A stretch of 64,000 bases of DNA from a bacterium (GCA_029258725.1 JAPDKE010000022.1:10881-74880), one strand, 5' to 3'; counted from the first letter of the stretch, positions 2,177 through 45,131 are shown. Program-made: numbers and translations. Notes: generated by a model not told the origin, from the letters alone.

Positions 2177-2581
2177 TCACTGTACTCCCTCAACCTTTAT
2201 ACCTTCCGTTTCCAGCATTTTTGTCAATATTCCCTTCCCTGGAACCCTTTCCCAGTCAACATTTGTGAAATTCACTCCACATGAAGGGCTTCCTTCCTTC
2301 AATATCGCCTTTTTTATCCCCAGTTTTTTGCATAATTCAACCACCATCCCTGCACCTCTCAGGAAATTTTCGGTAACATCCTCCCCTTCTTCATTTACCA
2401 CTTTCCCTCCTGAAAGGGTTGCCCTGGGACGGGGAGTGGGAAGACCTCCAAGCTGTTCAGGACAGAGGGGGAGCAGACACTCCCCCTCTGCAAGTTTTAA
2501 AACTTCCTCCCTTTTTGCATCTTTACCATTATATCGTGTTGGAAGACCTATAAGACAGGCACTTACAAGTATTCTTTTCAT
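2177..2581 (-). CDS. DUF523 family protein (TudS-like putative [4Fe-4S] protein)
   Basis: 134 aa. SACLIG..RYNG, LPLCPEQLGGLPTPRPRA and EGSPSCG match the DUF523 architecture. Its start overlaps the hydA stop (ATGA), so it looks translationally coupled. Confidence 0.7.
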   Translation of the reverse strand: MKRILVSACLIGLPTRYNGKDAKREEVLKLAEGECLLPLCPEQLGGLPTPRPRATLSGGKVVNEEGEDVTENFLRGAGMVVELCKKLGIKKAILKEGSPSCGVNFTNVDWERVPGKGILTKMLETEGIKVEGVQ

Positions 2582-3858
2582 TTCTTTACCTTCACACGCA
2601 GCATGTGAACAGAACAGCTTATGCAGGGGTCGTATGCCCTGGGTATGAGTTCAAGCCTGAGTTCAAAATCCTCAGGGGGATTCTTAACCAGATTCTCGGC
2701 GGCTCTCCTGAGATATTTTTCCATATCGTCCAGGTTCTGTGCTGTTGGGGTTATAATATCACATTCAACAGTCCTTCCATTTTCAACTTTATAGTGATGA
2801 TAAAGCGTTCCCCTGGGTGCCTCAACAGCTCCTGTCCCTTCTCCTTCCTTAACCTCGGGCTCCTTCAGTTCAGGGTCCGGGAGAGAAAGTATCCTGTCCA
2901 CAAGAGGAGGTATCTGTTCAAGACAGAAAAGAATCTCAATTGCCTGGGCAAGGTTGTTAAAGAGAGGGTTCCTTTTCCACCTTTCACTCCAGAGCCTCCT
3001 GAAGAAATCCCCCGCCTTCCCGGGTAGTCTCTCTCCCAGGATGTTCACCCTTGCAAGTGCACCAACGGTAAATGGAGAACCTGCGTAGGATGAGCGTTTT
3101 GCAAAGGAATGAGGAACAACCCTCTCGTTTGTTACCTTTTTATACTCCTCCACATCAAACCTTTCACCCTTTGAAGTTATTATCGTATTCCCAATAAACC
3201 CGAACCCATCATCCTCAGGAACAAGACAGATAAAGTTTGTCTCCTCCTCCATGTAGTCCGGTATCTCCATTGCAGGGAATGCCATTATCCCATCCTCTAT
3301 CACAGGAATAAGGGCAAGTGCACGGGACTTTATGTGCTCAAGGGCGTCTTTTTCAGGAATCCTGCCCATGTATCCTATCCTTATGTTCTCACCATGAATT
3401 GCCTTTCCGTTTATCGTCTCCATGATGAAGTTTCCGAACTTCTTGAGTTCAAGACCACCGAGAACAAGATCCCCGTATTTTTCAGCCATTGAGATCGCAT
3501 CTGGATATCCAAAAAAGTCCGGAAGTGCGAGGAGGTAATAGTGGAGTGAATGGCTCTCTATATATTCCCCATAGTGAACGAGTTTCCTCAAAAGCCTTAT
3601 CTTCTCAGGAACCTCAACCCCGCCTGCACGTTCAAATCCACGGACGGATGCAAGACGGTGGGAGGTGGAGCATATGGAGCATATCCTGGTAACTATGGAT
3701 ATAACATCGTCCGGTCTCTTTCCAAGAACAACGGTCTCTATGAGCCTTGGACCCTCGTATATATCCATTCTCACTTCTTTTACCCTTTCATCTTCCATTT
3801 CAACATATATTCCACCTTCTCCCTCAACCCTTGCAAGGGGCATTATATTTATCTTCAT
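2578..3858 (-). CDS. hydA: [NiFe] hydrogenase large (alpha) subunit, group 3b sulfhydrogenase type
   Basis: 426 aa. N-terminal RICSICSTSH and C-terminal DPCISCSVH are the two nickel-binding CxxC motifs of NiFe large subunits. Operon context with beta, gamma and delta subunits supports group 3b. Confidence 0.9.
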   Translation of the reverse strand: MKINIMPLARVEGEGGIYVEMEDERVKEVRMDIYEGPRLIETVVLGKRPDDVISIVTRICSICSTSHRLASVRGFERAGGVEVPEKIRLLRKLVHYGEYIESHSLHYYLLALPDFFGYPDAISMAEKYGDLVLGGLELKKFGNFIMETINGKAIHGENIRIGYMGRIPEKDALEHIKSRALALIPVIEDGIMAFPAMEIPDYMEEETNFICLVPEDDGFGFIGNTIITSKGERFDVEEYKKVTNERVVPHSFAKRSSYAGSPFTVGALARVNILGERLPGKAGDFFRRLWSERWKRNPLFNNLAQAIEILFCLEQIPPLVDRILSLPDPELKEPEVKEGEGTGAVEAPRGTLYHHYKVENGRTVECDIITPTAQNLDDMEKYLRRAAENLVKNPPEDFELRLELIPRAYDPCISCSVHMLRVKVKK

Positions 3859-4595
3859 TTCACCTCCCTTACTTTACCACCAAATATCTTCATCCTGTTT
3901 CTGAGTTCCTCAGGGGAGTATCCTTTCTCAAGCAAAAGTTTATATTCGGATGAAACGTTTTCCTCCTCAACAGGACCAAAACATCCTATACACGGGATGT
4001 TATGAGTGGGACATATTGCACCACATCCACCCCTGGTTATTGGACCAAGGCATATCTTTCCCTTCATGAGCAGACACTCATTCTCCTTCCACTTGCACTC
4101 CGCACATACCGCAAAGCTGTAAAGTTCGGGCATGGTTCCAAGCAAAAGTTTACCGGCAGCAGAGAGAAACTGATGTTTGTTTATGGGGCATCCCGGGATA
4201 ACCGCATCAACCCTGACAAACATTCCCAGAGGCTCGTGAGGTATGGGTCGGGTATGAATGAAGTTCACATCACCGTAAACCTTCTTCAACCTCTCTTCCC
4301 AGTTATTTTCTGATATCTGGACACCACCAAATATCGCACAGTGTCCAACCGCAACCAGGATTTTGCTTTTTTCTCTCACACGCTTGAGCAGATGAAGATT
4401 CTCCTCTGTTGATACCGACCCTTCAACGAATGCTATATCAAGTTCTGTATCCTCATCATGGGCGCTTGATGCCATCGCAAAGGATTTAACCTCCACAACA
4501 TCAAAGAGTGAAAGCAACTGGTCCTCGCAGTTAAGCATATTGAGCATGTCCCCTGCACATCCTGTAAGTTCGTAAAATCCAACCTTTGGCTTCAT
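3855..4595 (-). CDS. hydD: [NiFe] hydrogenase small (delta) subunit, sulfhydrogenase
   Basis: 246 aa. Cys-rich FeS cluster motifs (GCAGD near the N-terminus; CPINKHQF, CAECKWKENEC, GGCGAICPTHNIPCIGCFGP) are typical of group 3 small subunits. Confidence 0.85.
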   Translation of the reverse strand: MKPKVGFYELTGCAGDMLNMLNCEDQLLSLFDVVEVKSFAMASSAHDEDTELDIAFVEGSVSTEENLHLLKRVREKSKILVAVGHCAIFGGVQISENNWEERLKKVYGDVNFIHTRPIPHEPLGMFVRVDAVIPGCPINKHQFLSAAGKLLLGTMPELYSFAVCAECKWKENECLLMKGKICLGPITRGGCGAICPTHNIPCIGCFGPVEEENVSSEYKLLLEKGYSPEELRNRMKIFGGKVREVK

Positions 4596-4604: not shown

Positions 4605-5438
4605 CTATATGAGTTCCTTCATGTGCAAGACGTCCCAGTAGGTGAACACAGGACCATCAAGGCATGTGTATATATATTCTATTGCACAGTGTCCGCACTT
4701 GCCTATCCCGCATTTCATCCTGCGTTCAAGGGTCATGAGTATCTGGTTTTTTGGTATCTGTAATTCCACAAGTTTTTCAACCACAAACTTATACATCACA
4801 GGAGGTCCACATACGGCAGCATATGTATTCTTCGGGTCTATTCCCTTGACATACCTGAAAAGTTCTGTGACAACCCCGGTGTATGCAGGCCATCTTCCGG
4901 TATCATCCCTGTCAACCGTGAGAAGACATACAAGGTCATCCCTGTGCATGAGCTCAAGGAATTCCTCCCGGAAGAGCATATCATCCGGTGTCCTTGCACC
5001 GTGAAGGAGGTATATCTTTCCAAACAGTTCGCGGTTGTCCAGTGCGTAAAGCAAGAGTGAACGGAGGGGTGCAGCACCAAGTCCCCCCATTATTATGAGA
5101 AGGTCGTGTCCCTCCATCTGCTCAACAGGAAATCCATTCCCGTAGGGTCCTCTCAGCCATATTACCGCATTTTCCTTGAGTTCAAAGATTTTCTCTGTTA
5201 GCCTTCCCACCTTCCTTATGCAGAACTCATAAAGCCCGGGACGGGATGGCGTTGAGGAGATGGAGAAGGGAGCCTCTCCTATTCCTGGAAGGGATATCAT
5301 CATGAACTGTCCTGGCCTGTAGTTGAGTTCACACACCTCGGTTCCCATGTATGGTCTCACCTGGAAGAATTTCACATCGTCGGTGAGCCTGTATATCCTC
5401 ACTATCCTTGCACGCTGCATTTCATATGGATTCATCAT
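4605..5438 (-). CDS. hydG: Sulfhydrogenase gamma subunit (FAD/NAD(P)-binding oxidoreductase with 2Fe-2S)
   Basis: It carries a ferredoxin-NADP reductase-like fold (RIVRIYRLTDDVKFFQV, LLIIMGGLGAAPLRS) and a C-terminal CGIGKCGHC 2Fe-2S motif. I place the start at the internal ATG at 5438, which overlaps the hydB stop as ATGA. The longer track ORF to 5522 would overlap hydB by 88 nt. Confidence 0.8.
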   Translation of the reverse strand: MMNPYEMQRARIVRIYRLTDDVKFFQVRPYMGTEVCELNYRPGQFMMISLPGIGEAPFSISSTPSRPGLYEFCIRKVGRLTEKIFELKENAVIWLRGPYGNGFPVEQMEGHDLLIIMGGLGAAPLRSLLLYALDNRELFGKIYLLHGARTPDDMLFREEFLELMHRDDLVCLLTVDRDDTGRWPAYTGVVTELFRYVKGIDPKNTYAAVCGPPVMYKFVVEKLVELQIPKNQILMTLERRMKCGIGKCGHCAIEYIYTCLDGPVFTYWDVLHMKELI

Positions 5439-6478
5439 TCCTCCCCCCTTGCCCATATTGCATCGACCTTTTCTCCTTTGAGTGCTTTTGCAACATTGGG
5501 CACATTTATTCCCACAGGACATGCATCAACACATCTTCCGCATCCAACGCATGCGGGTTTTCCAAACTGGCTCATAAACCCGGTAAGTTTGTGGGTGTAA
5601 AAGAGTTTCAACCTGTCGGACCTCTTCTCCCTGAAGTTGTGTCCGCCCGCAACCAGGGAGTATTCCTTAAACATGCACGAGTCCCAGTGACGATCACGCT
5701 TTATTCTCTCTTCATAGAAAACATTCTCATCCACAACATTGTAACAGTTGCATGTTGGACATACCATTGAACATGAGCCACAGGAGAGACATGCCTCTCC
5801 TATTTTTTCCCATATGGGTCTTTTGTAACTTATCTCCACAATCTCAGGCATTCCGGTAAGGTCAAGGTCGGTCTTGAACATCTTATCCCTCTTTCTTCTC
5901 CACTCTATGTATCTTTCTATATCCTCCTCGGTAACATCTTCATCAAAAAGGTCTTCCCTTATCCTGGTAAGGTCATCCCCAAGACTTGACCCAACCCACA
6001 CTAAGTAAAACTCACCCTCCACATCGCTGAAGAAGAGGTCAAACCCCTCCTCCACACTGTGGGTATTTGTTGCAATACAGAAGCATTTTTCATCAGGAAG
6101 GCAGGAGAATCCCAGGATCGCTGTGTTTTTTCTCCTTTTGATGTAGTAAGGGTCAGGATAGTGTTCCATAAAAAGCCTGTCCAGAATGAGAATGCCAAAG
6201 ATATCACAGGGATGAAGCCCGAAGATGATCCGCCGGCTCTCATCAAACTCCTCCTCCCAGCGCCCATCCCTGTAAGAAAACATGGTGAACCTGGGAGGAA
6301 CAAAGAACTTCTTGGGTGGGAGTATCGTTCTCCGTGCAGTGAGGTCAAACTCGGAAGGGTCTTTCTTTGCAAAAACGAACTTCTCCCCCTTCCTTACAGG
6401 ACCCCATACCTCACCCCACTCCTCAAGGGAACGCAGATACTCCACCAGTTTCGTCTTATCCAGCTTTATAACCCTCAT
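5435..6478 (-). CDS. hydB: Sulfhydrogenase beta subunit (4Fe-4S, HydB/ShyB-like)
   Basis: 347 aa with CLSCGSCSMVCPTCNCY and CVGCGRCVDACP ferredoxin-type motifs. It is the first gene of the hyd operon and has the RBS AAAGGAGG upstream. Confidence 0.85.
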   Translation of the reverse strand: MRVIKLDKTKLVEYLRSLEEWGEVWGPVRKGEKFVFAKKDPSEFDLTARRTILPPKKFFVPPRFTMFSYRDGRWEEEFDESRRIIFGLHPCDIFGILILDRLFMEHYPDPYYIKRRKNTAILGFSCLPDEKCFCIATNTHSVEEGFDLFFSDVEGEFYLVWVGSSLGDDLTRIREDLFDEDVTEEDIERYIEWRRKRDKMFKTDLDLTGMPEIVEISYKRPIWEKIGEACLSCGSCSMVCPTCNCYNVVDENVFYEERIKRDRHWDSCMFKEYSLVAGGHNFREKRSDRLKLFYTHKLTGFMSQFGKPACVGCGRCVDACPVGINVPNVAKALKGEKVDAIWARGEE

Positions 6479-6494
6479 TTCCTTTTACCTCCTT

Positions 6495-6512
6495 TTGTGA
6501 ATTTTTTCACAA
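6495..6512. promoter_or_regulatory. Rex operator (perfect palindrome TTGTGAA-N4-TTCACAA) in the hydB promoter
   Basis: Plus strand 6495-6512 reads ttgtgaattttttcacaa, an 18-bp perfect inverted repeat that matches the Rex box consensus TTGTGAAnnnnTTCACAA. It lies between the putative -10 and the RBS of hydB. Confidence 0.6.
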
Positions 6513-6540
6513 ATATATAAAAATAAAATCGGGTTTGTCA
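6513..6540 (-). promoter_or_regulatory. Putative sigma70-type promoter of the hyd operon (TTGACA-N16-TATATA)
   Basis: Minus strand reads TTGACAAACCCGATTTTATTTTTATATATT immediately upstream of the Rex box, about 45-65 nt upstream of the hydB ATG. Confidence 0.35.
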
Positions 6541-6584
6541 AGTTGTAATATTGGAATTTCAAGGGATTGTGAAATGAGGGGGTT

Positions 6585-7622
6585 TTATCTTCTTATAAGT
6601 CCATAAACAGGCACGATTGCTCGGAAGGGGCAGAGTTCCTGGCAGCTCATGCACCCTATGCACCTTGAATAGTTTATCCTTGCTGTGTCTTTTATTTCAA
6701 TCGCACCAGCAGGGCAGTTTCTCATGCATACTCCACATCCCGTGCATTTTTCAGGAAGAACTCCTGGTTTTACCCGATAAAGGCGGGAAAGAATATGTCC
6801 TGCCCAGGAAGGAAGCAGGTGATACCATCTTTTCCCCGGGAGTTTCAGCCGGAACCTGAAATCTCCCTCAACCGTATAAGAAGGCAGAATTTTCTTTCTT
6901 TCTGCAATTCTTTTCAATGGAAATCCACCTGCTCCTGTCCTCTTTGCAACCTCAACATCAAGTGCAAGGGCAGAGGGAGAGCCGGCAACGATTCCGGGAC
7001 GGACAGGATTTCCGGCAGATGGTCCATTTCCCTCCATTCCCCATATTCCATCAAGAAGCGTCAGGTCCGGTTTTACGAGAAAATAAAGTTCGAGCAACAT
7101 GTGGGAGAAGGAGAATGGGTCCGGATATTTAGTGTGAAGTTTCTTTTTTGTGACCCCCGGGATTAACCCGTAGAGGTTTTTAACCCCCAGGGTGAGGGTT
7201 GTCAGGGTATGTGTCTTGAGTTTTGGCAGATTTATTATCCTGTCAACCTTTTCAAGGACCGAGGTTAAAAGCCATCCATTTTTTAAAATGGTTCTTTCTT
7301 TATCGAAGAGAACGCATGGATATCCCAGGTCCTTTATCCCGGTTCTTTCAAAAAGTTCCTCTCCAATTCCCTGCATTCCAGGGCTGTCCCCGATAATCAC
7401 CTTCCCTCCTGCTTCCTCAATAAGTTCACACACCGCTCTCACAAAATCAGGATGGGTTGTCACTGCATGTTCAGGAGTATGAGGGGAGAGAAGATTTGGT
7501 TTAACAAGGACTCTTTCACCCTTTCTTACAAATCTTTCAATCCCTCCAAGTCTATCCACTACCTCTTTCAGCGCCTCCTTTACATCGGAATAACTTTCAC
7601 ACCGTGAAAATACAACCTTCAT
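6585..7622 (-). CDS. DUF362 domain protein with C-terminal 2x[4Fe-4S] ferredoxin domain
   Basis: 345 aa with an N-terminal DUF362-like region and C-terminal CTGCGVCMRNCP / CIGCMSCQELCP motifs. Confidence 0.7.
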   Translation of the reverse strand: MKVVFSRCESYSDVKEALKEVVDRLGGIERFVRKGERVLVKPNLLSPHTPEHAVTTHPDFVRAVCELIEEAGGKVIIGDSPGMQGIGEELFERTGIKDLGYPCVLFDKERTILKNGWLLTSVLEKVDRIINLPKLKTHTLTTLTLGVKNLYGLIPGVTKKKLHTKYPDPFSFSHMLLELYFLVKPDLTLLDGIWGMEGNGPSAGNPVRPGIVAGSPSALALDVEVAKRTGAGGFPLKRIAERKKILPSYTVEGDFRFRLKLPGKRWYHLLPSWAGHILSRLYRVKPGVLPEKCTGCGVCMRNCPAGAIEIKDTARINYSRCIGCMSCQELCPFRAIVPVYGLIRR

Positions 7623-7631
7623 AAATTAAAA

Positions 7632-7649
7632 GGGGGGCGGGAGCCCCCC
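7632..7649 (-). terminator. Rho-independent terminator hairpin (GGGGGGC-GGGA-GCCCCCC) downstream of the lipoprotein gene
   Basis: GC-rich perfect stem followed by a T-run on the minus strand (..CCCCCCTTTTAATTTAT). Confidence 0.5.
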
Positions 7650-7656
7650 TTATTCT

Positions 7657-24906: not shown

Positions 24907-27900
24907 TTATTTTACAATGACTATCTTCTCTGTATCGGAAACTCTGCCGTTCTCTATTCTCAGGAAGTAAACGCCAGGATGCTCTATGGTGAATTTTGCC
25001 CTGTGATATCCAGCTTTATGAACCCCTCCCTTTATCTTCTTTACCTTCCTCCCAGCACCATCGTACAGGGTGAGACACACATATTCCTTTTGAGGAACGG
25101 TGTAGATAACCGTTACCGCGCCCGCTGAAGGGAGAGGATACACCCTCTCTATACCAAGTCTTAAAGCCACGGGGCCTGTGGACGCCAGAAACGGTCCATA
25201 TACCTTTTTCTTCCCTTCACCCACTGCCCTCAACCTGTAGAAGTAGGTTTTTCCCTTCTCAATATCTGTGTCAAGATAAGAGTATGTATGCCTTCCACTT
25301 CCTCGCCTTCCCGGAATCCGTGCTATAACCCTGTATTCCTTTCCTTTTTCCTTTCTTTCTATTTCCCACCTCTCCGTATTTTCATCCATAACAACCCATC
25401 TGAACATTATTCCTTCCCCGATGAAGTATGCCATAGCAGTTATAAAGTTGAGAGAAAGCGTGGTTTTTGCAAGAATGTATCCTTCATAAGGAAGGAGATT
25501 TTCTCCGGTAACCGTGACAAATACCGTCTCTTCCCTGGAGGGATTGACAGTAAAGACTGCCTCTCCATTTATATCCGTGGTATCTCTAAGATAAACATCA
25601 AAATCTCTGGTGGCAAGTGTAACAAGTGCATCCTCCACCGGAGCCTTTGCCGTGTAAACTTTTACCGTGCACTGATTTGCATTTCCCACCTCAATCTCCG
25701 CAGGATGTGTAACAGAAAGGGCAACAGGAATGTCAGTCCATATCGGTGTCTCAGGGTCTCCAAACAGGGTATGTTCATAAAGAACCCATCTGAAGTAATC
25801 ATCGGATGATGCCGTTGGAACCAGCTGGTCCTTTGCTGCAAAGAACACCTCTCCAAGACGATATAGAGAGGTCCCAAAGAGTTTCCGATAAAACCACACA
25901 CTGAGTTCTCCCGAGGGACCAAGGGCTCCCTCTGGTGACGAGTATCCCCATCCGTACCTTGTGTTCATTCCTGTTCCAATGGCGCAGGAGGTATTTGAGT
26001 TCACCATAACTTCCGCCACACAGTCATATCCCGACGATGAACCAGCCTCATCCAGTGCTCCCATGAAGCATGCTATGGAATTTACAAATATCGTGTTATT
26101 CGCAGGGTTTGTCTGGTTTCCCACATCGGAGTAGTAATAATATATCTCGCTTCCATAATCGTAGTAAATCCCATATTCATTTCCATGCCCCACCCAGTGT
26201 CCTATGCTGAATCCGGAATTTATGGAGTCAAACACAGTATATCGGGAAAGAAGCCCATAATCTTCATAAAGCTTTGCCTTCTTCCATGTATCCGGGACGG
26301 TATCGGCAATTGTGTCATTTATTCCATTCCCATGATTTGTGCTCCAGAGGTTTCCAACAGGAAGCAGTATCTTTCTTATATAATCCGGGTCAGGATTCTT
26401 CTCATAAGCCAGTATCTTCTGGACCATGTTGCTTATCTGGGTTGTATTTTTTACCGGGAATCTTCCCACGTAAACATCCGCATACATATCGACCTGGTCC
26501 GTTGTCTCGCCGTAAACTCCATCCCCATCATAATCCCATGTTCCATCAAGATCTGCATAGTAGAGGTCACATGGAATGGTGTCCTCATCGGAATAGTATC
26601 CGACACCACTTGTCATGCAGTATGCATCCCTTCTGGGCACATACTCCTCACCATGCTCAAAGTCGCACTGCCCTGCAAGGACAACATAAATAACTCCCCT
26701 GTTCACTGCATCTATTATGTAATTCCTTATTTTCTCTGCATTATCGGTTCCGCTGTAATACTTGTATATGGTCTCAACAGGCATTACCGCGGCAGGAACT
26801 CCTTTCTTCGTTTTCCACCATATGAGGTCTGAAAAGGCACTTCTGAATGCCTCAGGAGTTATTATCACATACTCAGTATCCCCTGGCGCTCCTCCACCTC
26901 CTCCACCAGATGCCCAGGAGAAACTCTGGGAATATATATTATCCGTCTCATCACTCTCATCCACGGTATCTGTCGTATCGGCATAGATTTTGAGAGTATG
27001 GGTTCCAGCGGTGAAGGTATCTATGTAATCTTCAACGTATGCATAGTAATTTGGAGGAAGTGTATCACAGTACCATCCTGCTATGGGAATGTCGTCACAA
27101 TAGAGATAAATGTAGAAGTAAAACGCAGTATCAGAACCATTGTTTATTATTGCCCAGTCAATGTAGGTTGTGGAATCCCCCATGAGATTTGGTCCATAAG
27201 TATGTGTGTTGGGTTCAGAAGATGGAACTATAGGACCATCCCATCCGTCAGGAGTATAATAGGTGAGATTTGGCATGCTTGCAGGTTCCCATTCAAGGCT
27301 ATCAATCTCAAATCCCCATCTGGTAACACTGTTATCGCTTTTAAGAACAACCTTCATGTAATTTCCGTCTCCCCAGCTGGTCCAGAAGTTGGTCCCCACA
27401 CTTCCGGTATATGTATTCACAAGATTTCCACTTCCATCGTAAACATATACACTGTCGTAGGAATGTTCTGTTTCAAGCCTTGCAAAGTGAAGTCTCATCC
27501 TTATATCTCCCGCATCCTGTGGTCCGTAAATGAAGTATGCCTGATTAGCATAATCTGGATAGTTGTGGGGAGACTCAACATTGTGCTCACGGAAGAAGTT
27601 GTACCAGTCAGAATACCATCCATAGTCGGTAATACTTCCATCGCTTTTAAGCCTTGTTGCTTCGGTTGGCTGTTTGGTATAATCCTGATTATATGAGGAC
27701 CATTCACTCCACACTCCCCTATGGGTTCCCGTCCAGGTATTGAGCACTGTTGAGGAATCTATGTCATAACAGAAAACCGAATCATAGGAATATTCCGTCT
27801 TTATGGAGTCGTAATAAAATATGAGTTCTCCAATCCAGTCATTTGCAGGACCAGACATGTAAACCGTGGTATCCATGTTATTGAGGTAGGGGTGAGGGGA

Positions 27901-28395
27901 CTCATAGGGTCCGCACCATCCACCAACCTGAATGTAGTTTACATCAAATCCATATTTTGTAACCGATGCGTCGCTCTTTATCCGCACGGTAAAAGTGGGT
28001 CCATCTCCCCAGGATGTCCATGTGGGACCATATGCACCCGTAAAGTAATCCACAAGATCTCCATCATTATCATAGACAAAAACAGTATCGTATCCGCTTT
28101 CAACATCTATCGTATCAAAGTGGATTGTCATCCATACATTTTCAGGAGGTCCATAAACCTTATAGGAAATGTCCATACTGTTCCAGTAGGGATGGGGAGA
28201 AGAAATGTACGCAGGAAGAACAGTACCCTTTGCCCTTTTAATTCTTTCAGTCACAGGATGAGGAGCCACAGGATAGATTGATTGCCCAAAGGACATCCGG
28301 ACCGGTTCCCTTATCTCCTTTACCACCAGGGGTTCCCTTACCTCCTTCACCTCCGTCCTTAAAATGGGTATGGTAAACAAAAGAATGTAAATCAT
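24907..28395 (-). CDS. Secreted C25-family (gingipain/PorU-like) cysteine peptidase with three N-terminal CUB-like domains and C-terminal Ig/FN3 + T9SS-type sorting domain
   Basis: 1162 aa. After the signal peptide come three ~95-aa repeats (ESPHPYPN...YGP...I.L.F..F.TE..YD.V.VYD..G.LV...TG...W.S..........KSD.SVT..GF...Y) that match the CUB fold pattern. The C25 catalytic domain follows (IITPEAF..WK..KG, YVVLAGQ, His in SIGHWVGHGNEYG, Cys in VNSIACFMGALD), and the protein ends with an FlgD-Ig/Por-type CTD (..GVYFLRIENGRVSDTEKIVIVK). Confidence 0.75.
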   Translation of the reverse strand: MIYILLFTIPILRTEVKEVREPLVVKEIREPVRMSFGQSIYPVAPHPVTERIKRAKGTVLPAYISSPHPYWNSMDISYKVYGPPENVWMTIHFDTIDVESGYDTVFVYDNDGDLVDYFTGAYGPTWTSWGDGPTFTVRIKSDASVTKYGFDVNYIQVGGWCGPYESPHPYLNNMDTTVYMSGPANDWIGELIFYYDSIKTEYSYDSVFCYDIDSSTVLNTWTGTHRGVWSEWSSYNQDYTKQPTEATRLKSDGSITDYGWYSDWYNFFREHNVESPHNYPDYANQAYFIYGPQDAGDIRMRLHFARLETEHSYDSVYVYDGSGNLVNTYTGSVGTNFWTSWGDGNYMKVVLKSDNSVTRWGFEIDSLEWEPASMPNLTYYTPDGWDGPIVPSSEPNTHTYGPNLMGDSTTYIDWAIINNGSDTAFYFYIYLYCDDIPIAGWYCDTLPPNYYAYVEDYIDTFTAGTHTLKIYADTTDTVDESDETDNIYSQSFSWASGGGGGGAPGDTEYVIITPEAFRSAFSDLIWWKTKKGVPAAVMPVETIYKYYSGTDNAEKIRNYIIDAVNRGVIYVVLAGQCDFEHGEEYVPRRDAYCMTSGVGYYSDEDTIPCDLYYADLDGTWDYDGDGVYGETTDQVDMYADVYVGRFPVKNTTQISNMVQKILAYEKNPDPDYIRKILLPVGNLWSTNHGNGINDTIADTVPDTWKKAKLYEDYGLLSRYTVFDSINSGFSIGHWVGHGNEYGIYYDYGSEIYYYYSDVGNQTNPANNTIFVNSIACFMGALDEAGSSSGYDCVAEVMVNSNTSCAIGTGMNTRYGWGYSSPEGALGPSGELSVWFYRKLFGTSLYRLGEVFFAAKDQLVPTASSDDYFRWVLYEHTLFGDPETPIWTDIPVALSVTHPAEIEVGNANQCTVKVYTAKAPVEDALVTLATRDFDVYLRDTTDINGEAVFTVNPSREETVFVTVTGENLLPYEGYILAKTTLSLNFITAMAYFIGEGIMFRWVVMDENTERWEIERKEKGKEYRVIARIPGRRGSGRHTYSYLDTDIEKGKTYFYRLRAVGEGKKKVYGPFLASTGPVALRLGIERVYPLPSAGAVTVIYTVPQKEYVCLTLYDGAGRKVKKIKGGVHKAGYHRAKFTIEHPGVYFLRIENGRVSDTEKIVIVK

Positions 28396-28522: not shown

Positions 28523-29221
28523 TTACCGGAATTTTCTAAATTTTATTCCCTCTCCATCAATTACAGCATAGGTAAAGTTTTCTATCCAGTCCCCCAGGAT
28601 AATAAAATCCTTCTCATTTATTTTCACATGCCTCGGGAGATGAAGGTGCCCCACAATAACCGCATCCACCTCCTGGAGTTTTTTCCTCGCAAACTCCTTC
28701 AGCACCTCATATCTTTTTATCTCCTTTTCCTCCTCAATCCTGTTGAGTCTTGTCACAAGGTATCCAAGCCATGCTCCGAAGTCGGGATGGAGCAGGGAAA
28801 AAAGTTTAATCGGAACCCTCCCTCTGAGCAGTTTCTTCATGAACCTGCTCCGGTAACAGGGTTTCACATAGTCCCCGTGGATGAAAAATATTTTCTTTCC
28901 ATAAAGTTCAAACACCTTCCCTTCCCGGTATATCGGAATCCCCGCCCACAAGAAAGCATCCTTTATCCAGTAGTCGTGATTCCCAACCCATAACCTCACA
29001 TCCACCCCTTTTCTCTTCATATCGTAAAGCCTGTAAAGCAGAGGCAATGCAATTTTCGGCATAACACTCCGGTACTCAAAATAGAAATTGAATATATCGC
29101 CCAGGAGGAAAAGCCTCTCCCCCTCCTCCTCAACCATGTCAAGAAATTCAAATATTATTCTTTCCCTTTCTTTTTCTTTTATTCCTATCCCTATATGAAG
29201 GTCCGAAATGCAGAAGGTCAT
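28523..29221 (-). CDS. Calcineurin-like metallophosphoesterase (LpxH-like UDP-2,3-diacylglucosamine hydrolase family)
   Basis: 232 aa with DLHIG, GDIFN, GNHD, GHLH and GDW metallophosphatase motifs. Confidence 0.6.
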   Translation of the reverse strand: MTFCISDLHIGIGIKEKERERIIFEFLDMVEEEGERLFLLGDIFNFYFEYRSVMPKIALPLLYRLYDMKRKGVDVRLWVGNHDYWIKDAFLWAGIPIYREGKVFELYGKKIFFIHGDYVKPCYRSRFMKKLLRGRVPIKLFSLLHPDFGAWLGYLVTRLNRIEEEKEIKRYEVLKEFARKKLQEVDAVIVGHLHLPRHVKINEKDFIILGDWIENFTYAVIDGEGIKFRKFR

Positions 29222-30846
29222 TTCCGGTACCTGTGGGTTATGGGAACCCTTCTTCCAGAGCCAAACGCCTTTGATGAAACCTTTATGGCAAACGGAATCT
29301 GCTTCCTTTTGTACTCTGCTATGTAATACCTCCTCAGTATCTCTTCAACCACATCCCTGGGATACCCCTTCCCAACTATCTCCTCAACACTCATGTTTTC
29401 CTCAATGAGATGATAGAGAACGGGGTCAAGCATGGCATAGGGTGGAATATCGTCCTCGTCGCGCTGGTCCTTTCTCAGTTCTGCAGAGGGGGGCTTTTTA
29501 AATACCCTTTGGGGAATAATTTCCCTTTTCTCATTTAAAATCCTGGCTATCTCATAAACCTCGTTTTTGTAAAGGTCCCCGAGGGGAGCCATTGCCCCGA
29601 CCGTATCCCCATAAAGGGTATTGTATCCAATGCTTATCTCAGATTTATTTCCTGTTGCAAGAACAAGCAGCCTTTCCTTATTCGCATATGCCATGAGAAT
29701 ATTGCCCCTTATCCTTGCCTGGAGGTTTTCTTTGCTCAGGGTGTCAAGGGGGAACGATTTTTCAATCAGGGAAAGAAATTCATGGTAAATCTGGGATATT
29801 GGAACCTCAATGAGTTTTATCCCGAGTCTTTGTGCTATCTCATATGCATCCTCCCTGCTTTCAGGAGATGTGAAGTCTCCGGGCATGAAAATGGCGAGGA
29901 CATTTTCCTTTTCAAGTGCCTCAACAGCAAGGCAGGCAACCACAGCAGAATCAATCCCTCCACTCAATCCAAGAACCACTCCCCTGAATCCATTTTTTCT
30001 CACATAGTCCCTTATTCCCAGGACAATCGCATCCTTAACCTCCCGATACCCTCCCTCCTTCACCTCTATTCTTTCCTTTTTTTCCATATCCCATACAAAA
30101 AGCCCTTCTTTAAAGGAGGGGGCGAGAAAGACAATATCTCCATCCGGGTCGCATGCAAAACTTCCTCCATCAAAGACTATCTCATCCCATCCACCAACCA
30201 GGTTGACATAGAGAATGAATGTTTTATTCTCCCTTGCCCTTTTTGAAACAAGTCTTCTTCTTATCCCGGGCTTTCCCCTGTAAAATGGAGATGCAGAAAT
30301 GTTTATAATGAGTTCTGCCCCAAGGGATGCCTGCTCATCCACCGGACCCTCATCATACCATATATCCTCACATATGTTCACACCTATTTTTTTCCCTTTC
30401 ACCTCAAAAACACCCTTTTCTTCCCCCGGGGTGAAGTATCTCTCTTCATTGTAAACATCAAAAGAAGGAAGATGCTTTTTGAAATATTTACCAACCAGTT
30501 CCCCATCCCTTGCAAGAAATGCGGCATTGTAAAAGACCTCATCCTTCCGGTATCTTACGGAAGAAAGGTCGTAAACATTCGCATGTTTTCTTTCCCCCTT
30601 TTCTATGTATCCACCAATAACCGTTGCCTTTCCTGTCTTTTTTACCATTTTCTCAAGCCTCTCAAGCTGTTCCTCCACAAAGTATCTTCTGAGTATTATA
30701 TCCTTTGGAATGTATCCAGGGAGGGAGAGTTCGGGAAAGACAACCACATCGCAATCCCTTCCCTCCCTCATGTATTCTTCCATCTTTTTCCCATTCCCCT
30801 CAATATCACCGGGAACGGTGTTTATCTGCCCTATTCCTATCCTCAT
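29218..30846 (-). CDS. nadE: Glutamine-dependent NAD+ synthetase (N-terminal nitrilase/CN-hydrolase domain + NadE domain)
   Basis: The CN-hydrolase domain starts at MRIGIGQIN and contains the ICED motif. The NadE domain carries the SGGIDS PP-loop and the SFGIYTN-like region. I take the internal ATG at 30846; the track ORF extends to 30918. Confidence 0.85.
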   Translation of the reverse strand: MRIGIGQINTVPGDIEGNGKKMEEYMREGRDCDVVVFPELSLPGYIPKDIILRRYFVEEQLERLEKMVKKTGKATVIGGYIEKGERKHANVYDLSSVRYRKDEVFYNAAFLARDGELVGKYFKKHLPSFDVYNEERYFTPGEEKGVFEVKGKKIGVNICEDIWYDEGPVDEQASLGAELIINISASPFYRGKPGIRRRLVSKRARENKTFILYVNLVGGWDEIVFDGGSFACDPDGDIVFLAPSFKEGLFVWDMEKKERIEVKEGGYREVKDAIVLGIRDYVRKNGFRGVVLGLSGGIDSAVVACLAVEALEKENVLAIFMPGDFTSPESREDAYEIAQRLGIKLIEVPISQIYHEFLSLIEKSFPLDTLSKENLQARIRGNILMAYANKERLLVLATGNKSEISIGYNTLYGDTVGAMAPLGDLYKNEVYEIARILNEKREIIPQRVFKKPPSAELRKDQRDEDDIPPYAMLDPVLYHLIEENMSVEEIVGKGYPRDVVEEILRRYYIAEYKRKQIPFAIKVSSKAFGSGRRVPITHRYRK

Positions 30847-31234
30847 CAAGATATTCTCCAAACCTTCTGTCGCTCCCAAGAATATGGTTATGCAGCCATT
30901 CCCTGAGAAAGTTTGCAAGTTTTATGGAAAATCCAGGGGGTGCATCCATGAAGTTTTTTTCCATCTCCATAACCTTCTTTGTTAAGTTCTCATGCTGCGC
31001 CCTGTGGGTGAGGAGTCCCGGATATCCGTATTTTTCCATCCACTTTTCCTCTGCCTGAAAGTGGAGTTGAACACGTTCTATGAATCCTTCAAGCACCCGG
31101 TGCACAGTTTCTCTTCCCTTTCCCTCCTTCATTGTCTCGTAAAGTTCGTTTATCAGGGAAAAAAGTTCCCTGTGCTGTTCATCCACCTCCCTTATCCCGA
31201 TCTCATACTCTTCCTTCCAGGGAAAAAAGACCAT
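30806..31234 (-). CDS. Hemerythrin-like (bacteriohemerythrin) metal-binding protein
   Basis: The WKEEYEIGIREVDEQHRELF ... HF..EE ... H..LT motif pattern is that of the HHE cation-binding domain. Start taken at the ATG at 31234. The 3' end overlaps the nadE start by about 40 nt. Confidence 0.7.
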   Translation of the reverse strand: MVFFPWKEEYEIGIREVDEQHRELFSLINELYETMKEGKGRETVHRVLEGFIERVQLHFQAEEKWMEKYGYPGLLTHRAQHENLTKKVMEMEKNFMDAPPGFSIKLANFLREWLHNHILGSDRRFGEYLDEDRNRADKHRSR

Positions 31235-31261
31235 GTTTTCTTTTTTCCTGCATATTAAGAA

Positions 31262-31300
31262 TTTTTGAAAAATTGTCAAGGAGCCTACTTCCCTTGACAA
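31262..31300. promoter_or_regulatory. Palindromic operator-like elements in the divergent hemerythrin/porG intergenic region
   Basis: TTTTTGAAAAA (31262-31272) and a 9-bp perfect inverted repeat TTGTCAAGG-N10-CCTTGACAA (31273-31300) lie about 60 nt upstream of the porG ATG. Confidence 0.4.
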
Positions 31301-31362
31301 GTCCCCTTTATCCCTTTATACTTGAAAGGACTTTAAAAGAATTTACAAAAGGAGGAGGAAAG

Positions 31363-31944: not shown

Positions 31945-32219
31945 AGGAAGGATGGAAGGAACTCCCAATAGGGGCGATAATAAAAGAGGCAGGGTCCAGC
32001 ATAAAGTTTGAAACAGGGGACTGGAGAACCAGAAAACCGGTTCTCAACAAGGAGAAGTGCATAAACTGCCTTTTCTGCTGGGTGTTCTGTCCGGACTCCT
32101 CCATAATCGTTGAGAACGGGGAAATGAAGGGGTTTCTCTATTCCCACTGCAAGGGATGCGGAATATGTGCTGAGGAATGCCCTGTAAAGGCAATTGAAAT
32201 GGTAAAGGAGGAGGTATGA
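31941..32219 (+). CDS. porD: Pyruvate:ferredoxin oxidoreductase delta subunit (2x[4Fe-4S])
   Basis: 92 aa with two ferredoxin motifs, CINCLFCWVFCP and CKGCGICAEECP; coupled to porG and porA. Confidence 0.9.
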   Translation: MKEGWKELPIGAIIKEAGSSIKFETGDWRTRKPVLNKEKCINCLFCWVFCPDSSIIVENGEMKGFLYSHCKGCGICAEECPVKAIEMVKEEV

Positions 32220-33385: not shown

Positions 33386-33396
33386 AGGAGGGAAGG

Positions 33397-34817: not shown

Positions 34818-34828
34818 ATGGAGGTGAG

Positions 34829-43340: not shown

Positions 43341-44488
43341 ACTGCTTCCTTTACAAACGCAAACAGTGTAAAGGATGCAAGAAAGGCAAGCACCGCGCCA
43401 AAGAGAAATGCATGGAGTTCACCGAAGCGCTGCCAGATAAAACCAAAGATAGCACTTCCAGGAAGGGCAGAAAGACCTACTGCAAGATGATATAGTCCGA
43501 ATGCCGTTCCTCTTTCTTCCTCCTTTGCAAGGTCTGCAACAAATGCCTTTTCAACCCCTTCTGTCAGACCAAAGTATATCCCGTAAAGGGCAAAGAGGGC
43601 CCATATATGCCAGTTTTTGTTTGAAAGACCGAAACCAAGGTAAATCAGGGCATAAACCATCCATCCTGCAATAATAACTCTTCTTCTGCCGATTCTATCA
43701 GAGAGGAGTCCTCCTGGGACCGAGGTCAACACCTTTACCAGGTGGAGGAAGACCCATATTAAAGGAAGAAATGCAATCTTTATCCCTGTGTTCTGTGCCT
43801 TTAAGAGCAAAAACGCATCGGAGGAATTTCCAAGAGTAAAGAGAATTAACGAGAGAAGATAAAGTCTGAAGTTCATTGAGACAGGTCCAAGCCTCCATGA
43901 AGTCTTTTTTATACTTTCCCCAGCCTTTTCCTCCACAAAAAATATAAGAATGAGAAGTGCGAGGATTCCTGGAATGAATGCAAGGAGGAATAAATGCCTC
44001 AGGTCCATCCCAAACCCGAGTATCATCCACACTGCAAAAAGGGGACCAAGAACCGCACCGAGATGGTCCATTGCCCTGTGGAATCCGTATGCAAATCCCC
44101 TTACCTCAGGAGAGGTGGAATCCGCAATGAGCGCATCTCTGGGTGAAGTCCTTATCCCCTTCCCAACTCTGTCAAAAAATCTTATCAAAAGCACATGAAT
44201 CCAGGAGGTTGCAATTCCTGTGAGGGGTCTTCCAAAAACCGCAAGGGAATACCCTGCAACAACAAGCCCCTTTTTCTTTCTTATCCGGTCGGAAATATAT
44301 CCCGAGAAAAATTTTAAAATGCTTGCTGTTGTTTCCGCTATCCCCTCTATAACCCCGAGAACAAACGCCCCTGCACCAAGAACGGAAGAAAGAAATGCAG
44401 GAAGTAAAGGATAGATTATTTCACTTGCCGCATCATTAAAAAGACTGACAATCCCGAGAGAAACGACATTTTTTGAGAGTTTTTTCAT
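43337..44488 (-). CDS. MFS transporter
   Basis: 383 aa with 12 predicted TM segments and MFS signature loops (GYISDRIRKKKG; LSDRIGRRR). Confidence 0.8.
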   Translation of the reverse strand: MKKLSKNVVSLGIVSLFNDAASEIIYPLLPAFLSSVLGAGAFVLGVIEGIAETTASILKFFSGYISDRIRKKKGLVVAGYSLAVFGRPLTGIATSWIHVLLIRFFDRVGKGIRTSPRDALIADSTSPEVRGFAYGFHRAMDHLGAVLGPLFAVWMILGFGMDLRHLFLLAFIPGILALLILIFFVEEKAGESIKKTSWRLGPVSMNFRLYLLSLILFTLGNSSDAFLLLKAQNTGIKIAFLPLIWVFLHLVKVLTSVPGGLLSDRIGRRRVIIAGWMVYALIYLGFGLSNKNWHIWALFALYGIYFGLTEGVEKAFVADLAKEEERGTAFGLYHLAVGLSALPGSAIFGFIWQRFGELHAFLFGAVLAFLASFTLFAFVKEAV

Positions 44489-45102
44489 TCCTCCTCCACG
44501 AAGAAACTGAGATACTCAAGTTCCATTGTGAGGTCAACATCGTGAATAAATACACCTGGAGGAGATTTTATACTGGCAGGGGTAAAATTCAAAATTCCCT
44601 GGATACCCGCATTTATTAGAATACCGGCAATATCCGGAGCAACATCAGGAGGCGTTGTAAGAATGGCAATCTTTATCCCCATTTCCCTTACAACCCTTGA
44701 AATTTCACAATCAGAATATACCGGAACCCCATGAATTCTCCTCCCCACCTTGTTTATATCGGCATCAAATGCAGCAACTATCTCGACCCTCTTTCTGAAA
44801 AATGGGGAGGCAAGAAGGGCAGTTCCGAGATTTCCAGCCCCAATAAGTATAGCCCTCCTCGGTTTTTCTATCTTCAATATTTTTCTCAATTCTTTTATCA
44901 ATTTTTCAATCTCATAACCCATCCCCCTCTTCCCCATCTTTCCGAAGTAAACCAGGTCCCTCCTTACCTGGGTATCAGTGAGGTCAAGCCTTTCAGCAAG
45001 TTCCTTAGAGGATACATACTCCTTTCCCTCTTTCTTCAGTCTTTCCAGGAGATGAAGATAAAAACACAATCTTTTAACCGTAGCAGGAGGTATCCTTCCC
45101 AT
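44485..45102 (-). CDS. rex: Redox-sensing transcriptional repressor Rex
   Basis: 205 aa. It has the N-terminal winged helix (IPPATVKRL.FYLHLL) and a Rossmann NADH-binding domain (AILIGAGNLGTAL), and is collinear with B. subtilis Rex. Confidence 0.85.
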   Translation of the reverse strand: MGRIPPATVKRLCFYLHLLERLKKEGKEYVSSKELAERLDLTDTQVRRDLVYFGKMGKRGMGYEIEKLIKELRKILKIEKPRRAILIGAGNLGTALLASPFFRKRVEIVAAFDADINKVGRRIHGVPVYSDCEISRVVREMGIKIAILTTPPDVAPDIAGILINAGIQGILNFTPASIKSPPGVFIHDVDLTMELEYLSFFVEEE

Positions 45103-45113: not shown

Positions 45114-45131
45114 TAGTGATTTTTTTCACAA
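45114..45131. promoter_or_regulatory. Rex-box-like site upstream of rex (probable autoregulation)
   Basis: TAGTGAT-TTTT-TTCACAA matches the Rex consensus at 12 of 14 positions, 12-29 nt upstream of the rex start codon. Confidence 0.4.

What the first reader, a model, noticed from the sequence alone, without database searches (positions are those of the whole stretch)
6479..6584. Perfect Rex operator in the promoter of a group 3b sulfhydrogenase operon, with rex encoded in the same window
The sequence TTGTGAATTTTTTCACAA (6495-6512) is a perfect 18-bp palindrome identical to the Rex box consensus TTGTGAA-N4-TTCACAA. It sits between a TTGACA-N16-TATATA promoter and the RBS of hydB, which is the classic roadblock position. 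A Rex repressor gene lies at 44485..45102. This indicates NADH/NAD+-responsive control of H2 metabolism in this organism. The DUF362-ferredoxin gene directly upstream shares the intergenic region.
Basis: partly seen in the sequence, partly recalled or inferred. Interest (0 to 1): 0.6.

Follow-up and report, generated by a model that had tools for sequence, protein, structure and literature searches.

The report
Rex operator on a hydrogenase promoter
A textbook binding site for the NADH-sensing repressor Rex sits on the promoter of an NAD(P)H-linked [NiFe] hydrogenase operon in an uncultured WOR-3-like bacterium, which is a well-supported but ordinary case of a known regulatory design.

Summary
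TTGTGAATTTTTTCACAA (6495-6512) is the only perfect match to the Rex consensus TTGTGAA-N4-TTCACAA in the 64 kb window, against about 0.0004 expected by chance. All the genes involved are on the minus strand. There the box lies one base after a TTGACA-N16-TATATA promoter, covers the predicted transcription start, and ends at the ribosome-binding site of hydB.

The operon is hydB-hydG-hydD-hydA plus a DUF523 gene, and it encodes a group 3b (sulfhydrogenase-type) [NiFe] hydrogenase. The gene at 44485-45102 is a genuine rex. It has its own 2-mismatch box between its -35 and -10 elements, which indicates autoregulation, and an 85%-identical Rex locus keeps that box.

The hydB box is conserved in all four lineages with HydB at least 68% identical, although their flanking genes differ. 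It is absent in more distant WOR-3 relatives. Rex boxes also head group 3b gene clusters in a few unrelated phyla.

A CRP/FNR-type site (TGTGA-N6-TCACA is embedded in the box) is the main rival and is weakly supported.

Rex control of hydrogenases is established experimentally. A Rex-like motif upstream of a group 3b operon has already been reported in Calderihabitans maritimus. This is therefore a new member of a known kind, and the interest is low to moderate.

The parts
6495..6512 (-). Rex operator. It reads TTGTGAAAAAATTCACAA on the coding (minus) strand and matches the consensus at 14 of 14 positions. It spans about -5 to +13 of the hydB promoter.
   Evidence: conserved in L081-L086, L001, L094 and L090
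6536..6541 (-). -35 hexamer TTGACA of the hydB promoter
   Evidence: TTGACAAA(A)C is conserved in L083, L094 and L090
6514..6519 (-). -10 hexamer TATATA with a 16-nt spacer. The alternative register is TATATT 6512-6517 with an 18-nt spacer, which is the one the scan reported.
6488..6494 (-). Shine-Dalgarno sequence AAGGAGG, 9 nt before the hydB ATG
5435..6478 (-). hydB, the group 3b hydrogenase beta subunit (Fer4_22, 347 aa)
4605..5438 (-). hydG, the gamma subunit with FAD/NAD(P)-binding and [2Fe-2S] domains. It is 277 aa, and its start overlaps the hydB stop codon by 4 nt (GGAATGATGA).
3855..4595 (-). hydD, the delta (small) subunit
2578..3858 (-). hydA, the [NiFe] large subunit. It has the motifs RICSICSTSH and DPCISCSVH, and its best solved-structure match is P. 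furiosus SHI alpha.
2177..2581 (-). DUF523 / 2-thiouracil desulfurase family gene. It overlaps the hydA stop by 4 nt, so it is probably the last gene of the operon. It is not conserved in relatives.
6585..7622 (-). DUF362 gene with two 4Fe-4S motifs, upstream and co-directional. No terminator separates it from the hydB promoter. It is not linked to hydB in relatives.
6572..6581 (-). CCCTCATTTC, the perfect reverse complement of GAAATGAGGG (6472-6481), which contains the hydB start codon. This possible anti-start element is present only in read-through transcripts.
44485..45102 (-). rex, the redox-sensing repressor (205 aa). It is the first gene of a rex-MFS-814 aa operon.
45114..45131 (-). Second Rex box, TTGTGAAAAAAATCACTA (2 mismatches). 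It lies between the TTGACC -35 (45132-45137) and the TATTTT -10 (45110-45115) of the rex promoter and is the inferred autoregulatory operator.
   Evidence: identical box in L091 and in the 85%-identical Rex locus L092

Best explanation
The 18-bp element is an operator for the Rex repressor encoded in the same window.

- **Repression (inferred).** When the cellular NADH/NAD+ ratio is low, the Rex dimer binds the box. The box begins one base after the -10 hexamer and covers the predicted transcription start. Bound Rex therefore occludes RNA polymerase, and it would also block any read-through from the upstream DUF362 gene.
- **Induction (inferred).** When NADH accumulates, NADH binding releases Rex from the DNA and hydB-hydG-hydD-hydA(-DUF523) is transcribed. 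The cytoplasmic group 3b [NiFe] hydrogenase can then dump NAD(P)H electrons as H2, or onto sulfur, and restore redox balance.
- **Autoregulation (inferred).** Rex also represses its own, probably leaderless, promoter through a second box placed between the -35 and -10 elements.
- **What is shown.** The sequence match and its improbability, the promoter geometry, the identity of Rex and of the hydrogenase, and the conservation of both boxes in relatives.
- **What is inferred.** Binding, the NADH response, the position of the transcription start, and the direction of H2 metabolism.
For: - **Sequence.** The match is 14 of 14, with about 0.0004 expected per window.
- **Intergenic concentration.** Two of the three window hits at two mismatches or fewer lie in the roughly 3.5 kb of intergenic DNA, at the hydB and rex promoters.
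- **Geometry.** The order is TTGACA, N16, TATATA, box, Shine-Dalgarno, ATG.
- **Rex identity.** Rex is genuine and keeps its DNA-recognition and NAD(H)-binding motifs.
- **Autoregulatory box.** It is conserved in L092, whose Rex is 85% identical, while the sequence further upstream is unrelated.
- **hydB box in close relatives.**
  - P0002 and L001 (HydB 72-73% identical) and P0004 (69%) have TTGTGAAAAATTTATCAA at -28, behind the same TTGACAAAACC -35.
  - In the P0002 loci the upstream gene is formate-tetrahydrofolate ligase instead of DUF362.
  - P0003 (68%) has TAGTGAAAAAATTCACGA behind a TTGACA promoter at -207.
- **Wider survey.**
  - Across 80 group 3b loci (852,546 bases), hits at one mismatch or fewer number 3 against 0.12 expected.
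  - All three lie upstream of hydrogenase-linked operons (L062, L035, L073).
  - Two further 2-mismatch boxes sit at -28 and -30 of hydB.
- **Literature.**
  - Rex binds and represses [FeFe] and [NiFe] hydrogenase promoters and its own gene in C. bescii, with the consensus TTGTGAANNNNTTCACAA (PMC6391272).
  - Rex-like motifs lie upstream of a CO-induced group 3b operon in C. maritimus (PMC7306483).
Against: - No binding or expression data exist for this organism.
- Only 64 kb of the genome could be scanned, so regulon-wide enrichment is untested.
- The pyruvate:ferredoxin oxidoreductase operon and nadE in the window are frequent Rex targets elsewhere. The best candidate box there has 4 mismatches.
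- About 75 of the 80 group 3b loci surveyed carry no box, and neither do WOR-3 relatives with HydB at or below 65% identity. The link is therefore lineage-specific.
- Group 3b enzymes often prefer NADPH, whereas Rex senses NADH.
- The box contains a perfect CRP core, TGTGA-N6-TCACA.
Confidence: 0.85

Rival explanations
1. The site is bound by a CRP/FNR-family regulator (CRP, HcpR, CooA-like or similar) rather than Rex. The box contains the perfect core TGTGA-N6-TCACA that such proteins recognise.
For: TGTGAATTTTTTCACA contains TGTGA-N6-TCACA. A cyclic-nucleotide-binding protein is encoded at 49748-50239. CRP/FNR-family regulators control hydrogenase and CO-metabolism genes in other anaerobes; CooA is discussed in PMC7306483.
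Against: - The cNMP-binding protein is 163 aa. It aligns to CRP only over the nucleotide-binding domain and has no helix-turn-helix, so it is not a DNA-binding CRP.
- No CRP/FNR-type regulator was found among the roughly 55 genes annotated in the window.
- The match extends to the four Rex-specific positions outside the CRP core (T1, T2, A17, A18, plus A7 and T12).
- A related box sits in the rex promoter itself and is conserved, which is the usual Rex autoregulation pattern.
- The position over the transcription start is unlike the -41.5 or -61.5 activating sites of CRP.
Confidence: 0.07
2. The inverted repeat is not a protein operator. It is either a chance AT-rich palindrome or an RNA hairpin in the hydB leader that affects translation or stability.
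For: Intergenic DNA here is AT-rich. In read-through RNA the repeat folds into an 8-bp hairpin just upstream of the Shine-Dalgarno sequence.
Against: - The chance expectation is about 4e-4 per window.
- If transcription starts about 7 nt after the -10 element, the left arm is not transcribed, so promoter-derived mRNA cannot form the hairpin.
- The hairpin is A/U-rich, has no following U-tract and does not include the Shine-Dalgarno sequence.
- In relatives the right arm changes to TTATCAA without a compensating change in the left arm. That breaks the stem but still resembles a Rex half-site.
- No Rfam family matches the region.
Confidence: 0.04

Closest known systems
Rex operators at hydrogenase promoters of Caldicellulosiruptor bescii (hyd [FeFe], ech [NiFe], hydG and rex itself), validated by EMSA (PMC6391272)
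   Same: The repressor family, the 18-bp consensus TTGTGAANNNNTTCACAA, the logic (NADH relieves repression of H2-evolving enzymes) and rex autoregulation are the same.
   Different: The target here is a cytoplasmic NAD(P)H-linked group 3b [NiFe] hydrogenase, not a bifurcating [FeFe] or membrane-bound Ech enzyme. The organism is an uncultured WOR-3-like bacterium, not a Firmicute. There is no experimental validation here.
Predicted Rex motif upstream of the hyd-3b cluster of Calderihabitans maritimus KKC1 (PMC7306483)
   Same: The hydrogenase class (group 3b, beta-gamma-small-large gene order) and the predicted regulator are the same. In that study the operon was induced under reducing (CO) conditions.
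   Different: The phylum differs. Here the site matches the consensus perfectly, the promoter geometry can be read directly, and there is phylogenetic footprinting plus a rex autoregulatory box. There are no transcriptome data here.
Rex regulons reconstructed by comparative genomics (Ravcheev et al. 2012, J Bacteriol 194:1145, as quoted in PMC6391272 and PMC5317091; the paper itself could not be read)
   Same: The consensus is the same, as is the statement that hydrogenases are taxon-specific regulon members.
   Different: WOR-3 and its relatives were not among the taxa I know to have been covered (my own recollection, not checked).
CRP/FNR-family sites (TGTGA-N6-TCACA)
   Same: The core palindrome is embedded in the box.
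   Different: The match extends beyond the CRP core, the site overlaps the transcription start, and no CRP-type DNA-binding protein is encoded nearby.

Membership tests
Rex operator (ROP site) | Match to the 18-bp consensus TTGTGAA-N4-TTCACAA | tested here: met
   14 of 14 specified positions match at 6495-6512. About 0.0004 perfect hits are expected per window.
Rex operator (ROP site) | A Rex protein with an N-terminal winged helix and a C-terminal NAD(H)-binding Rossmann domain is encoded in the genome | tested here: met
   Gene 44485-45102 (minus strand). Pfam Put_DNA-bind_N and CoA_binding domains. NCBIfam Rex subfamily 233.8 bits against a cut-off of 126. B. subtilis Rex 2vt2 at E 3e-43, with VRRDxxYFG, GAGNLG and AFD aligned.
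Rex operator (ROP site) | Location overlapping or next to the promoter of a redox or fermentation gene | tested here: met
   The box starts 1 nt after the TATATA -10 element of a TTGACA-N16-TATATA promoter and ends at the Shine-Dalgarno sequence of hydB. The transcription start is predicted, not mapped.
Rex operator (ROP site) | Conservation of the site upstream of orthologous genes in related genomes | tested here: met
   The box is present in all four lineages with HydB at least 68% identical (window, P0002/L001, P0004, P0003) despite different flanks. It is absent at 65% identity or below.
Rex operator (ROP site) | Autoregulatory site at rex (common but not universal) | tested here: met
   TTGTGAAAAAAATCACTA lies between the -35 and -10 elements of rex. 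It is identical in L092, whose Rex is 85% identical.
Rex operator (ROP site) | Motif enriched at several redox-gene promoters genome-wide (a regulon) | tested here: inconclusive
   Only 64 kb was available. There are 2 promoter sites (hydB, rex). The POR and nadE promoters lack a good site; the best candidate has 4 mismatches.
Rex operator (ROP site) | Rex binds the site and NADH releases it | not testable with these tools
   Needs EMSA or footprinting with purified protein.
Group 3b (sulfhydrogenase-type) [NiFe] hydrogenase | Four cytoplasmic subunits encoded in the order beta-gamma-delta-alpha | tested here: met
   The genes run hydB-hydG-hydD-hydA with overlapping or closely spaced junctions. 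Absence of transmembrane helices was not tested.
Group 3b (sulfhydrogenase-type) [NiFe] hydrogenase | Large subunit closest to characterised group 3b enzymes, with both Ni-binding Cys pairs | tested here: met
   P. furiosus SHI alpha 9nez at E 4e-100 and T. kodakarensis 5yxy at 1e-99, against group 3c MvhA at 1e-50. Motifs RICSICSTSH and DPCISCSVH are present. Scores fall below the NCBIfam equivalog cut-offs, which are trained on Thermococcales. No formal HydDB classification was run.
Group 3b (sulfhydrogenase-type) [NiFe] hydrogenase | Gamma subunit with FAD and NAD(P)-binding domains and an Fe-S cluster | tested here: met
   FAD_binding_6, NAD_binding_1 and DHODB_Fe-S_bind domains.
CRP/FNR-family binding site | TGTGA-N6-TCACA core | tested here: met
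   The core is embedded in the box.
CRP/FNR-family binding site | Cognate regulator with a cNMP/FNR sensor domain and a C-terminal helix-turn-helix | tested here: not met
   The only cNMP-domain protein in the window (49748-50239) has no helix-turn-helix. The rest of the genome was not seen.

The most novel reading that the evidence does not exclude
Two readings beyond the routine one are not excluded.

1. **A recurrent Rex to group 3b link.**
   - Rex control of group 3b hydrogenase clusters may be a convergently acquired feature across distant phyla, which would mark bacterial group 3b enzymes as NADH-overflow H2 valves.
   - The cases seen are this WOR-3-like clade, candidate division WS1 (L062), two unclassified MAGs (L042, L073), and a cluster headed by an [FeFe]-hydrogenase-like sensor kinase (L035).
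   - The Firmicute C. maritimus is a further case from the literature.
2. **A second layer at this locus.**
   - A 10-nt anti-start sequence just after the DUF362 stop codon pairs with the hydB start codon.
   - Read-through transcripts would then be translationally silent, and only transcripts from the Rex-gated promoter would make hydrogenase.
Probability: 0.25. Interest if true: 0.4.

Novelty: new member of a known kind. Interest (0 to 1): 0.22.

Why it matters
The site gives a concrete, testable regulatory link between the NADH/NAD+ ratio and H2 metabolism in an uncultured WOR-3-like lineage known only from metagenomes. It supports the view that the group 3b hydrogenase there serves as a fermentative redox valve rather than for H2 uptake. 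It extends Rex regulon predictions to another candidate phylum. It adds no new principle, because Rex-controlled hydrogenases, including a predicted group 3b case, are already described.

Tried and rejected
- **rex next to hyd operons.** tblastn of Rex against all 93 fetched loci found none beside a hyd operon.
- **More Rex sites in the window.** Apart from the sites at hydB and rex, every hit with three mismatches or fewer is inside a coding region. The intergenic candidates with 4 mismatches (28412, 28492, 31331) are too weak to claim.
- **CRP-type regulator in the window.** Only a cNMP-binding protein without a helix-turn-helix was found.
- **Known RNA element in the leader.** Rfam found only three tRNAs in the window.
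- **Literature.** Ravcheev et al. 2012 is not held in the library. A search for 'Rex + sulfhydrogenase + regulon' found nothing.
- **Metagenome scan with Rex.** It returned only 3 loci.
- **The 814-aa third gene of the rex operon.** It has no Pfam, NCBIfam or PDB match.
- **Source genome.** It is labelled only 'bacterium' in NCBI, and its other contigs could not be reached, so no genome-wide regulon scan was possible.

Full report
**Observation**

The sequence TTGTGAATTTTTTCACAA is present at 6495-6512. It is the only perfect match to TTGTGAA-N4-TTCACAA in the window.

- Base composition predicts about 0.0004 perfect matches per 64 kb, and none appeared in 200 first-order Markov simulations.
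- At two mismatches or fewer the window has 3 hits against about 0.3 expected.
- Two of these three lie in the window's roughly 3.5 kb of intergenic DNA, at the hydB and rex promoters. The third (52606) is inside a UvrD-like helicase gene.
- The element is a perfect 7+7 inverted repeat (8+8 with the flanking t/a) around a TTTT centre that is not self-complementary. 'Perfect 18-bp palindrome' is therefore slightly overstated.

**Anatomy**

All relevant genes are on the minus strand. Read 5' to 3' on that strand, the 106-bp intergenic region contains these elements:

| Element | Coordinates |
|---|---|
| TTGACA (-35) | 6541-6536 |
| Spacer | 16 nt |
| TATATA (-10) | 6519-6514 |
| Rex box TTGTGAAAAAATTCACAA | 6512-6495 |
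| AAGGAGG (Shine-Dalgarno) | 6494-6488 |
| hydB ATG | 6478 |

The consensus scan reports the alternative register TTGACA-N18-TATATT.

A start about 7 nt after the -10 element would fall near 6507, inside the box, so the box spans roughly -5 to +13. This start is an inference. The geometry is promoter occlusion more than roadblock, although bound Rex would also block read-through from the upstream gene. No terminator-like site was found between the DUF362 gene and the hydB promoter.

**The regulated genes**

| Gene | Coordinates | Evidence |
|---|---|---|
| hydB | 5435-6478 | Fer4_22; best NCBIfam hits are sulfhydrogenase beta models |
| hydG | 4605-5438 | 277 aa as called in L081 and L082; FAD, NAD and [2Fe-2S] domains |
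| hydD | 3855-4595 | Oxidored_q6 |
| hydA | 2578-3858 | NiFeSe_Hases |
| DUF523 / 2-thiouracil desulfurase family | 2177-2581 | Overlaps the hydA stop by 4 nt |

- HydA matches P. furiosus sulfhydrogenase I alpha (9nez, E 4e-100) and the T. kodakarensis cytosolic [NiFe] hydrogenase (5yxy, 1e-99). That is far better than its match to group 3c MvhA (1e-50) or group 3a or 3d enzymes.
- HydA carries both Ni-binding cysteine pairs, RICSICSTSH and DPCISCSVH. The group 3b assignment stands.
- The upstream gene (6585-7622) encodes a DUF362 domain with two 4Fe-4S motifs. It is not linked to hydB in relatives.

**The regulator**

- The gene at 44485-45102 (minus strand) has the Rex N-terminal DNA-binding domain and the CoA_binding Rossmann domain.
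- It passes the NCBIfam Rex subfamily cut-off at 233.8 bits against 126.
- It aligns end to end with B. subtilis Rex (2vt2, E 3e-43).
- The alignment conserves the VRRDxxYFGxxGxxGxGY recognition and wing region, the GxGxxG loop (GAGNLG) and the AFD acidic residue.

Directly upstream of rex is a second box, TTGTGAAAAAAATCACTA (45131-45114, 2 mismatches). It sits between TTGACC (45137-45132) and TATTTT (45115-45110), 11 nt before the ATG, and no Shine-Dalgarno sequence is evident. This suggests a leaderless, autorepressed rex. rex overlaps an MFS transporter gene, which in turn overlaps an 814-aa gene of unknown function.

**Comparative evidence**

The organism is an unclassified MAG. Its nearest relatives are labelled candidate division WOR-3.

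*The rex box.* A metagenomic locus with an 85%-identical Rex (L092) keeps CTTGACC-TTGTGAAAAAAATCACTA-TTTTTATAAATAATG. The sequence further upstream is unrelated.

*The hydB box in close relatives.*

- Same-species contigs L081 and L082 are identical in the box.
- The P0002 lineage (HydB 73% identical; L083-L086, and the GTDB representative L001) has TTGACAAAACCCATTATGTTTATAAAT-TTGTGAAAAATTTATCAA-AGGAGG at -28. There the upstream gene is formate-tetrahydrofolate ligase, not DUF362.
- That lineage also has a second, inverted copy of the same asymmetric box at -181.
- P0004 (69%, L094) has the same box at -28 in otherwise diverged flanks.
- P0003 (68%, L090) has TAGTGAAAAAATTCACGA just after a TTGACA promoter, at -207, ahead of a small ORF.
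- The alignment shows that the -35 element, the -10 element and the GTGA...TT..C.A core are the conserved blocks.

*More distant relatives.* HydB relatives at 56-65% identity (L087, L088, L095, L096, L097, L003, L005) have no box.

*Survey of 80 group 3b loci from GTDB species representatives (852,546 bases).*

| Mismatches | Observed | Expected |
|---|---|---|
| 0 | 1 | 0.003 |
| 1 | 2 | 0.12 |
| 2 | 4 | 2.3 |

All three hits at one mismatch or fewer are promoter-proximal to hydrogenase-linked operons:

- **L062 (candidate division WS1).** A perfect box lies about 94 nt upstream of hypA-hypF-hypD-hypE-hemerythrin-hydBGDA.
- **L035.** A 1-mismatch box lies 43 nt upstream of an [FeFe]-hydrogenase-like sensor histidine kinase, a response regulator and hydBGDA.
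- **L073.** A 1-mismatch box lies at -130 of hydB.

Two of the 2-mismatch hits sit at -28 (L001) and -30 (L042) of hydB. The Rex to group 3b link is therefore lineage-specific but recurrent.

**Rivals**

- **CRP/FNR-type site.**
  - The box contains a perfect CRP core, TGTGA-N6-TCACA.
  - The only cNMP-domain protein in the window (49748-50239) is 163 aa and has no helix-turn-helix.
  - No CRP/FNR regulator appeared among the roughly 55 genes annotated.
  - The match extends to Rex-specific flanking positions.
  - The site overlaps the transcription start rather than an activating position.
  - A related conserved box sits at rex itself.
- **RNA hairpin.**
  - Promoter-derived mRNA would lack the left arm.
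  - Relatives change one arm without compensation.
  - No Rfam family matches.

**Known context**

- Rex binds TTGTGAANNNNTTCACAA and represses [FeFe] and Ech [NiFe] hydrogenase genes, hydG, pyruvate:ferredoxin oxidoreductase and its own gene in C. bescii. This was shown by EMSA. Hydrogenases are described there as taxon-specific regulon members (PMC6391272).
- A Rex site heads a rex-[FeFe] hydrogenase operon in Caldithrix abyssi (PMC5317091).
- Rex-like motifs were reported upstream of the CO-induced group 3b (hyd-3b) cluster of Calderihabitans maritimus (PMC7306483).

The design found here therefore has direct precedent. What is new is the lineage, the perfect match, and the footprinting.

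**Limits**

- There are no binding or expression data.
- Only 64 kb of the genome was visible.
- The POR operon (porG ATG at 31364) and nadE have no convincing box.
- Group 3b enzymes often use NADPH, whereas Rex senses NADH. Rex does regulate NAD-independent enzymes elsewhere.

**Side observation**

- CCCTCATTTC (6581-6572) lies 3 nt after the DUF362 stop codon. It is the exact reverse complement of GAAATGAGGG (6481-6472), which contains the hydB start codon.
- The minimum-free-energy fold pairs the two (z -1.9).
- A same-species variant keeps the pairing through a G.U pair (z -2.3).
- Only 8 of 5000 shuffles gave a perfect complement of 10 nt or more overlapping the ATG.
- The pairing can exist only in read-through transcripts. 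It could therefore silence hydB translation unless transcription starts at the Rex-gated promoter.
- This is post hoc and speculative.

**Verdict**

It is a new member of a known kind, and the interest is low to moderate.

**Lineage Rex-site collection**

- TTGTGAAAAAATTCACAA (hydB, window)
- TTGTGAAAAAAATCACTA (rex, window, L091 and L092)
- TTGTGAAAAATTTATCAA (L083 and L094, proximal)
- ATGTGAAAATTTTATCAA (L083, distal, reverse complement)
- TAGTGAAAAAATTCACGA (L090)

Noticed in passing
window 6572-6581 and 6472-6481 (minus strand): A 10-nt sequence just after the DUF362 stop codon is the perfect reverse complement of the hydB start-codon region. The RNA fold pairs them, and a same-species variant keeps the pairing through a G.U pair. 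Only 8 of 5000 shuffles did as well. It may silence hydB translation on read-through transcripts.
   Followed up: partly
window 45100-45140 and 40896-45102 (minus strand): rex appears leaderless: the TATTTT -10 element ends about 7 nt before the ATG and there is no Shine-Dalgarno sequence. It heads an operon with an MFS transporter and an 814-aa protein that has no Pfam, NCBIfam or PDB match.
   Followed up: partly
L083 5757-5774 and 5910-5927 (also L084-L086): In the relative with 73%-identical HydB, the hydB upstream region carries two copies of the same asymmetric Rex-like box (half-sites TGTGAA and TGATAA). They are in opposite orientation and 153 bp apart, which suggests cooperative binding or looping.
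   Followed up: partly
L062 94-111; L035 3399-3416: In a WS1 bacterium a perfect Rex box precedes hypA-hypF-hypD-hypE-hemerythrin-hydBGDA. In another MAG a 1-mismatch box precedes a fusion of an [FeFe]-hydrogenase-like domain with a histidine kinase, then a response regulator, then hydBGDA.
   Followed up: partly
window 29218-34326: NAD synthase (nadE, minus strand), a hemerythrin gene (30806-31234, minus strand) and a divergent pyruvate:ferredoxin oxidoreductase operon (porG ATG at 31364) lie here. The only Rex-like sequence is a 4-mismatch element, CTTTAAAAGAATTTACAA (31331-31348), between the -10 element and the Shine-Dalgarno sequence of porG.
   Followed up: partly
window 49661-50239: A tRNA gene is followed immediately by a 163-aa protein that consists of a cyclic-nucleotide-binding domain only, with no helix-turn-helix or other output domain.
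   Followed up: partly
window 7623-7656: A strong GC-rich hairpin (AAGGGGGGCTCCCGCCCCCCTT followed by TTTAATTT) ends only 7 nt before the annotated DUF362 ATG. That leaves no room for a promoter or Shine-Dalgarno sequence, so how or where DUF362 expression starts is unclear.
   Followed up: no
window 4605-5522: The mechanical ORF for hydG is 305 aa. Gene calls on identical contigs use the 277-aa start, which overlaps the hydB stop codon by 4 nt (GGAATGATGA), and NCBIfam matches begin at residue 30 of the long form.
   Followed up: yes
window 24907-28395 and 45181-48993 (minus strand): Two very large predicted secreted proteases are encoded here. One is a C25 (gingipain-like) peptidase with CUB and CARDB domains. 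The other is an S8 subtilase with a C-terminal FlgD-Ig-like domain. Both are consistent with a proteolytic lifestyle.
   Followed up: no
window 34326-35410: A Roadblock/LC7 protein and a small Ras/Arf-like GTPase are encoded side by side, resembling an MglB/MglA pair.
   Followed up: no
window 40467-40646 (minus strand): Two tandem tRNA genes lie downstream of the rex operon.
   Followed up: no
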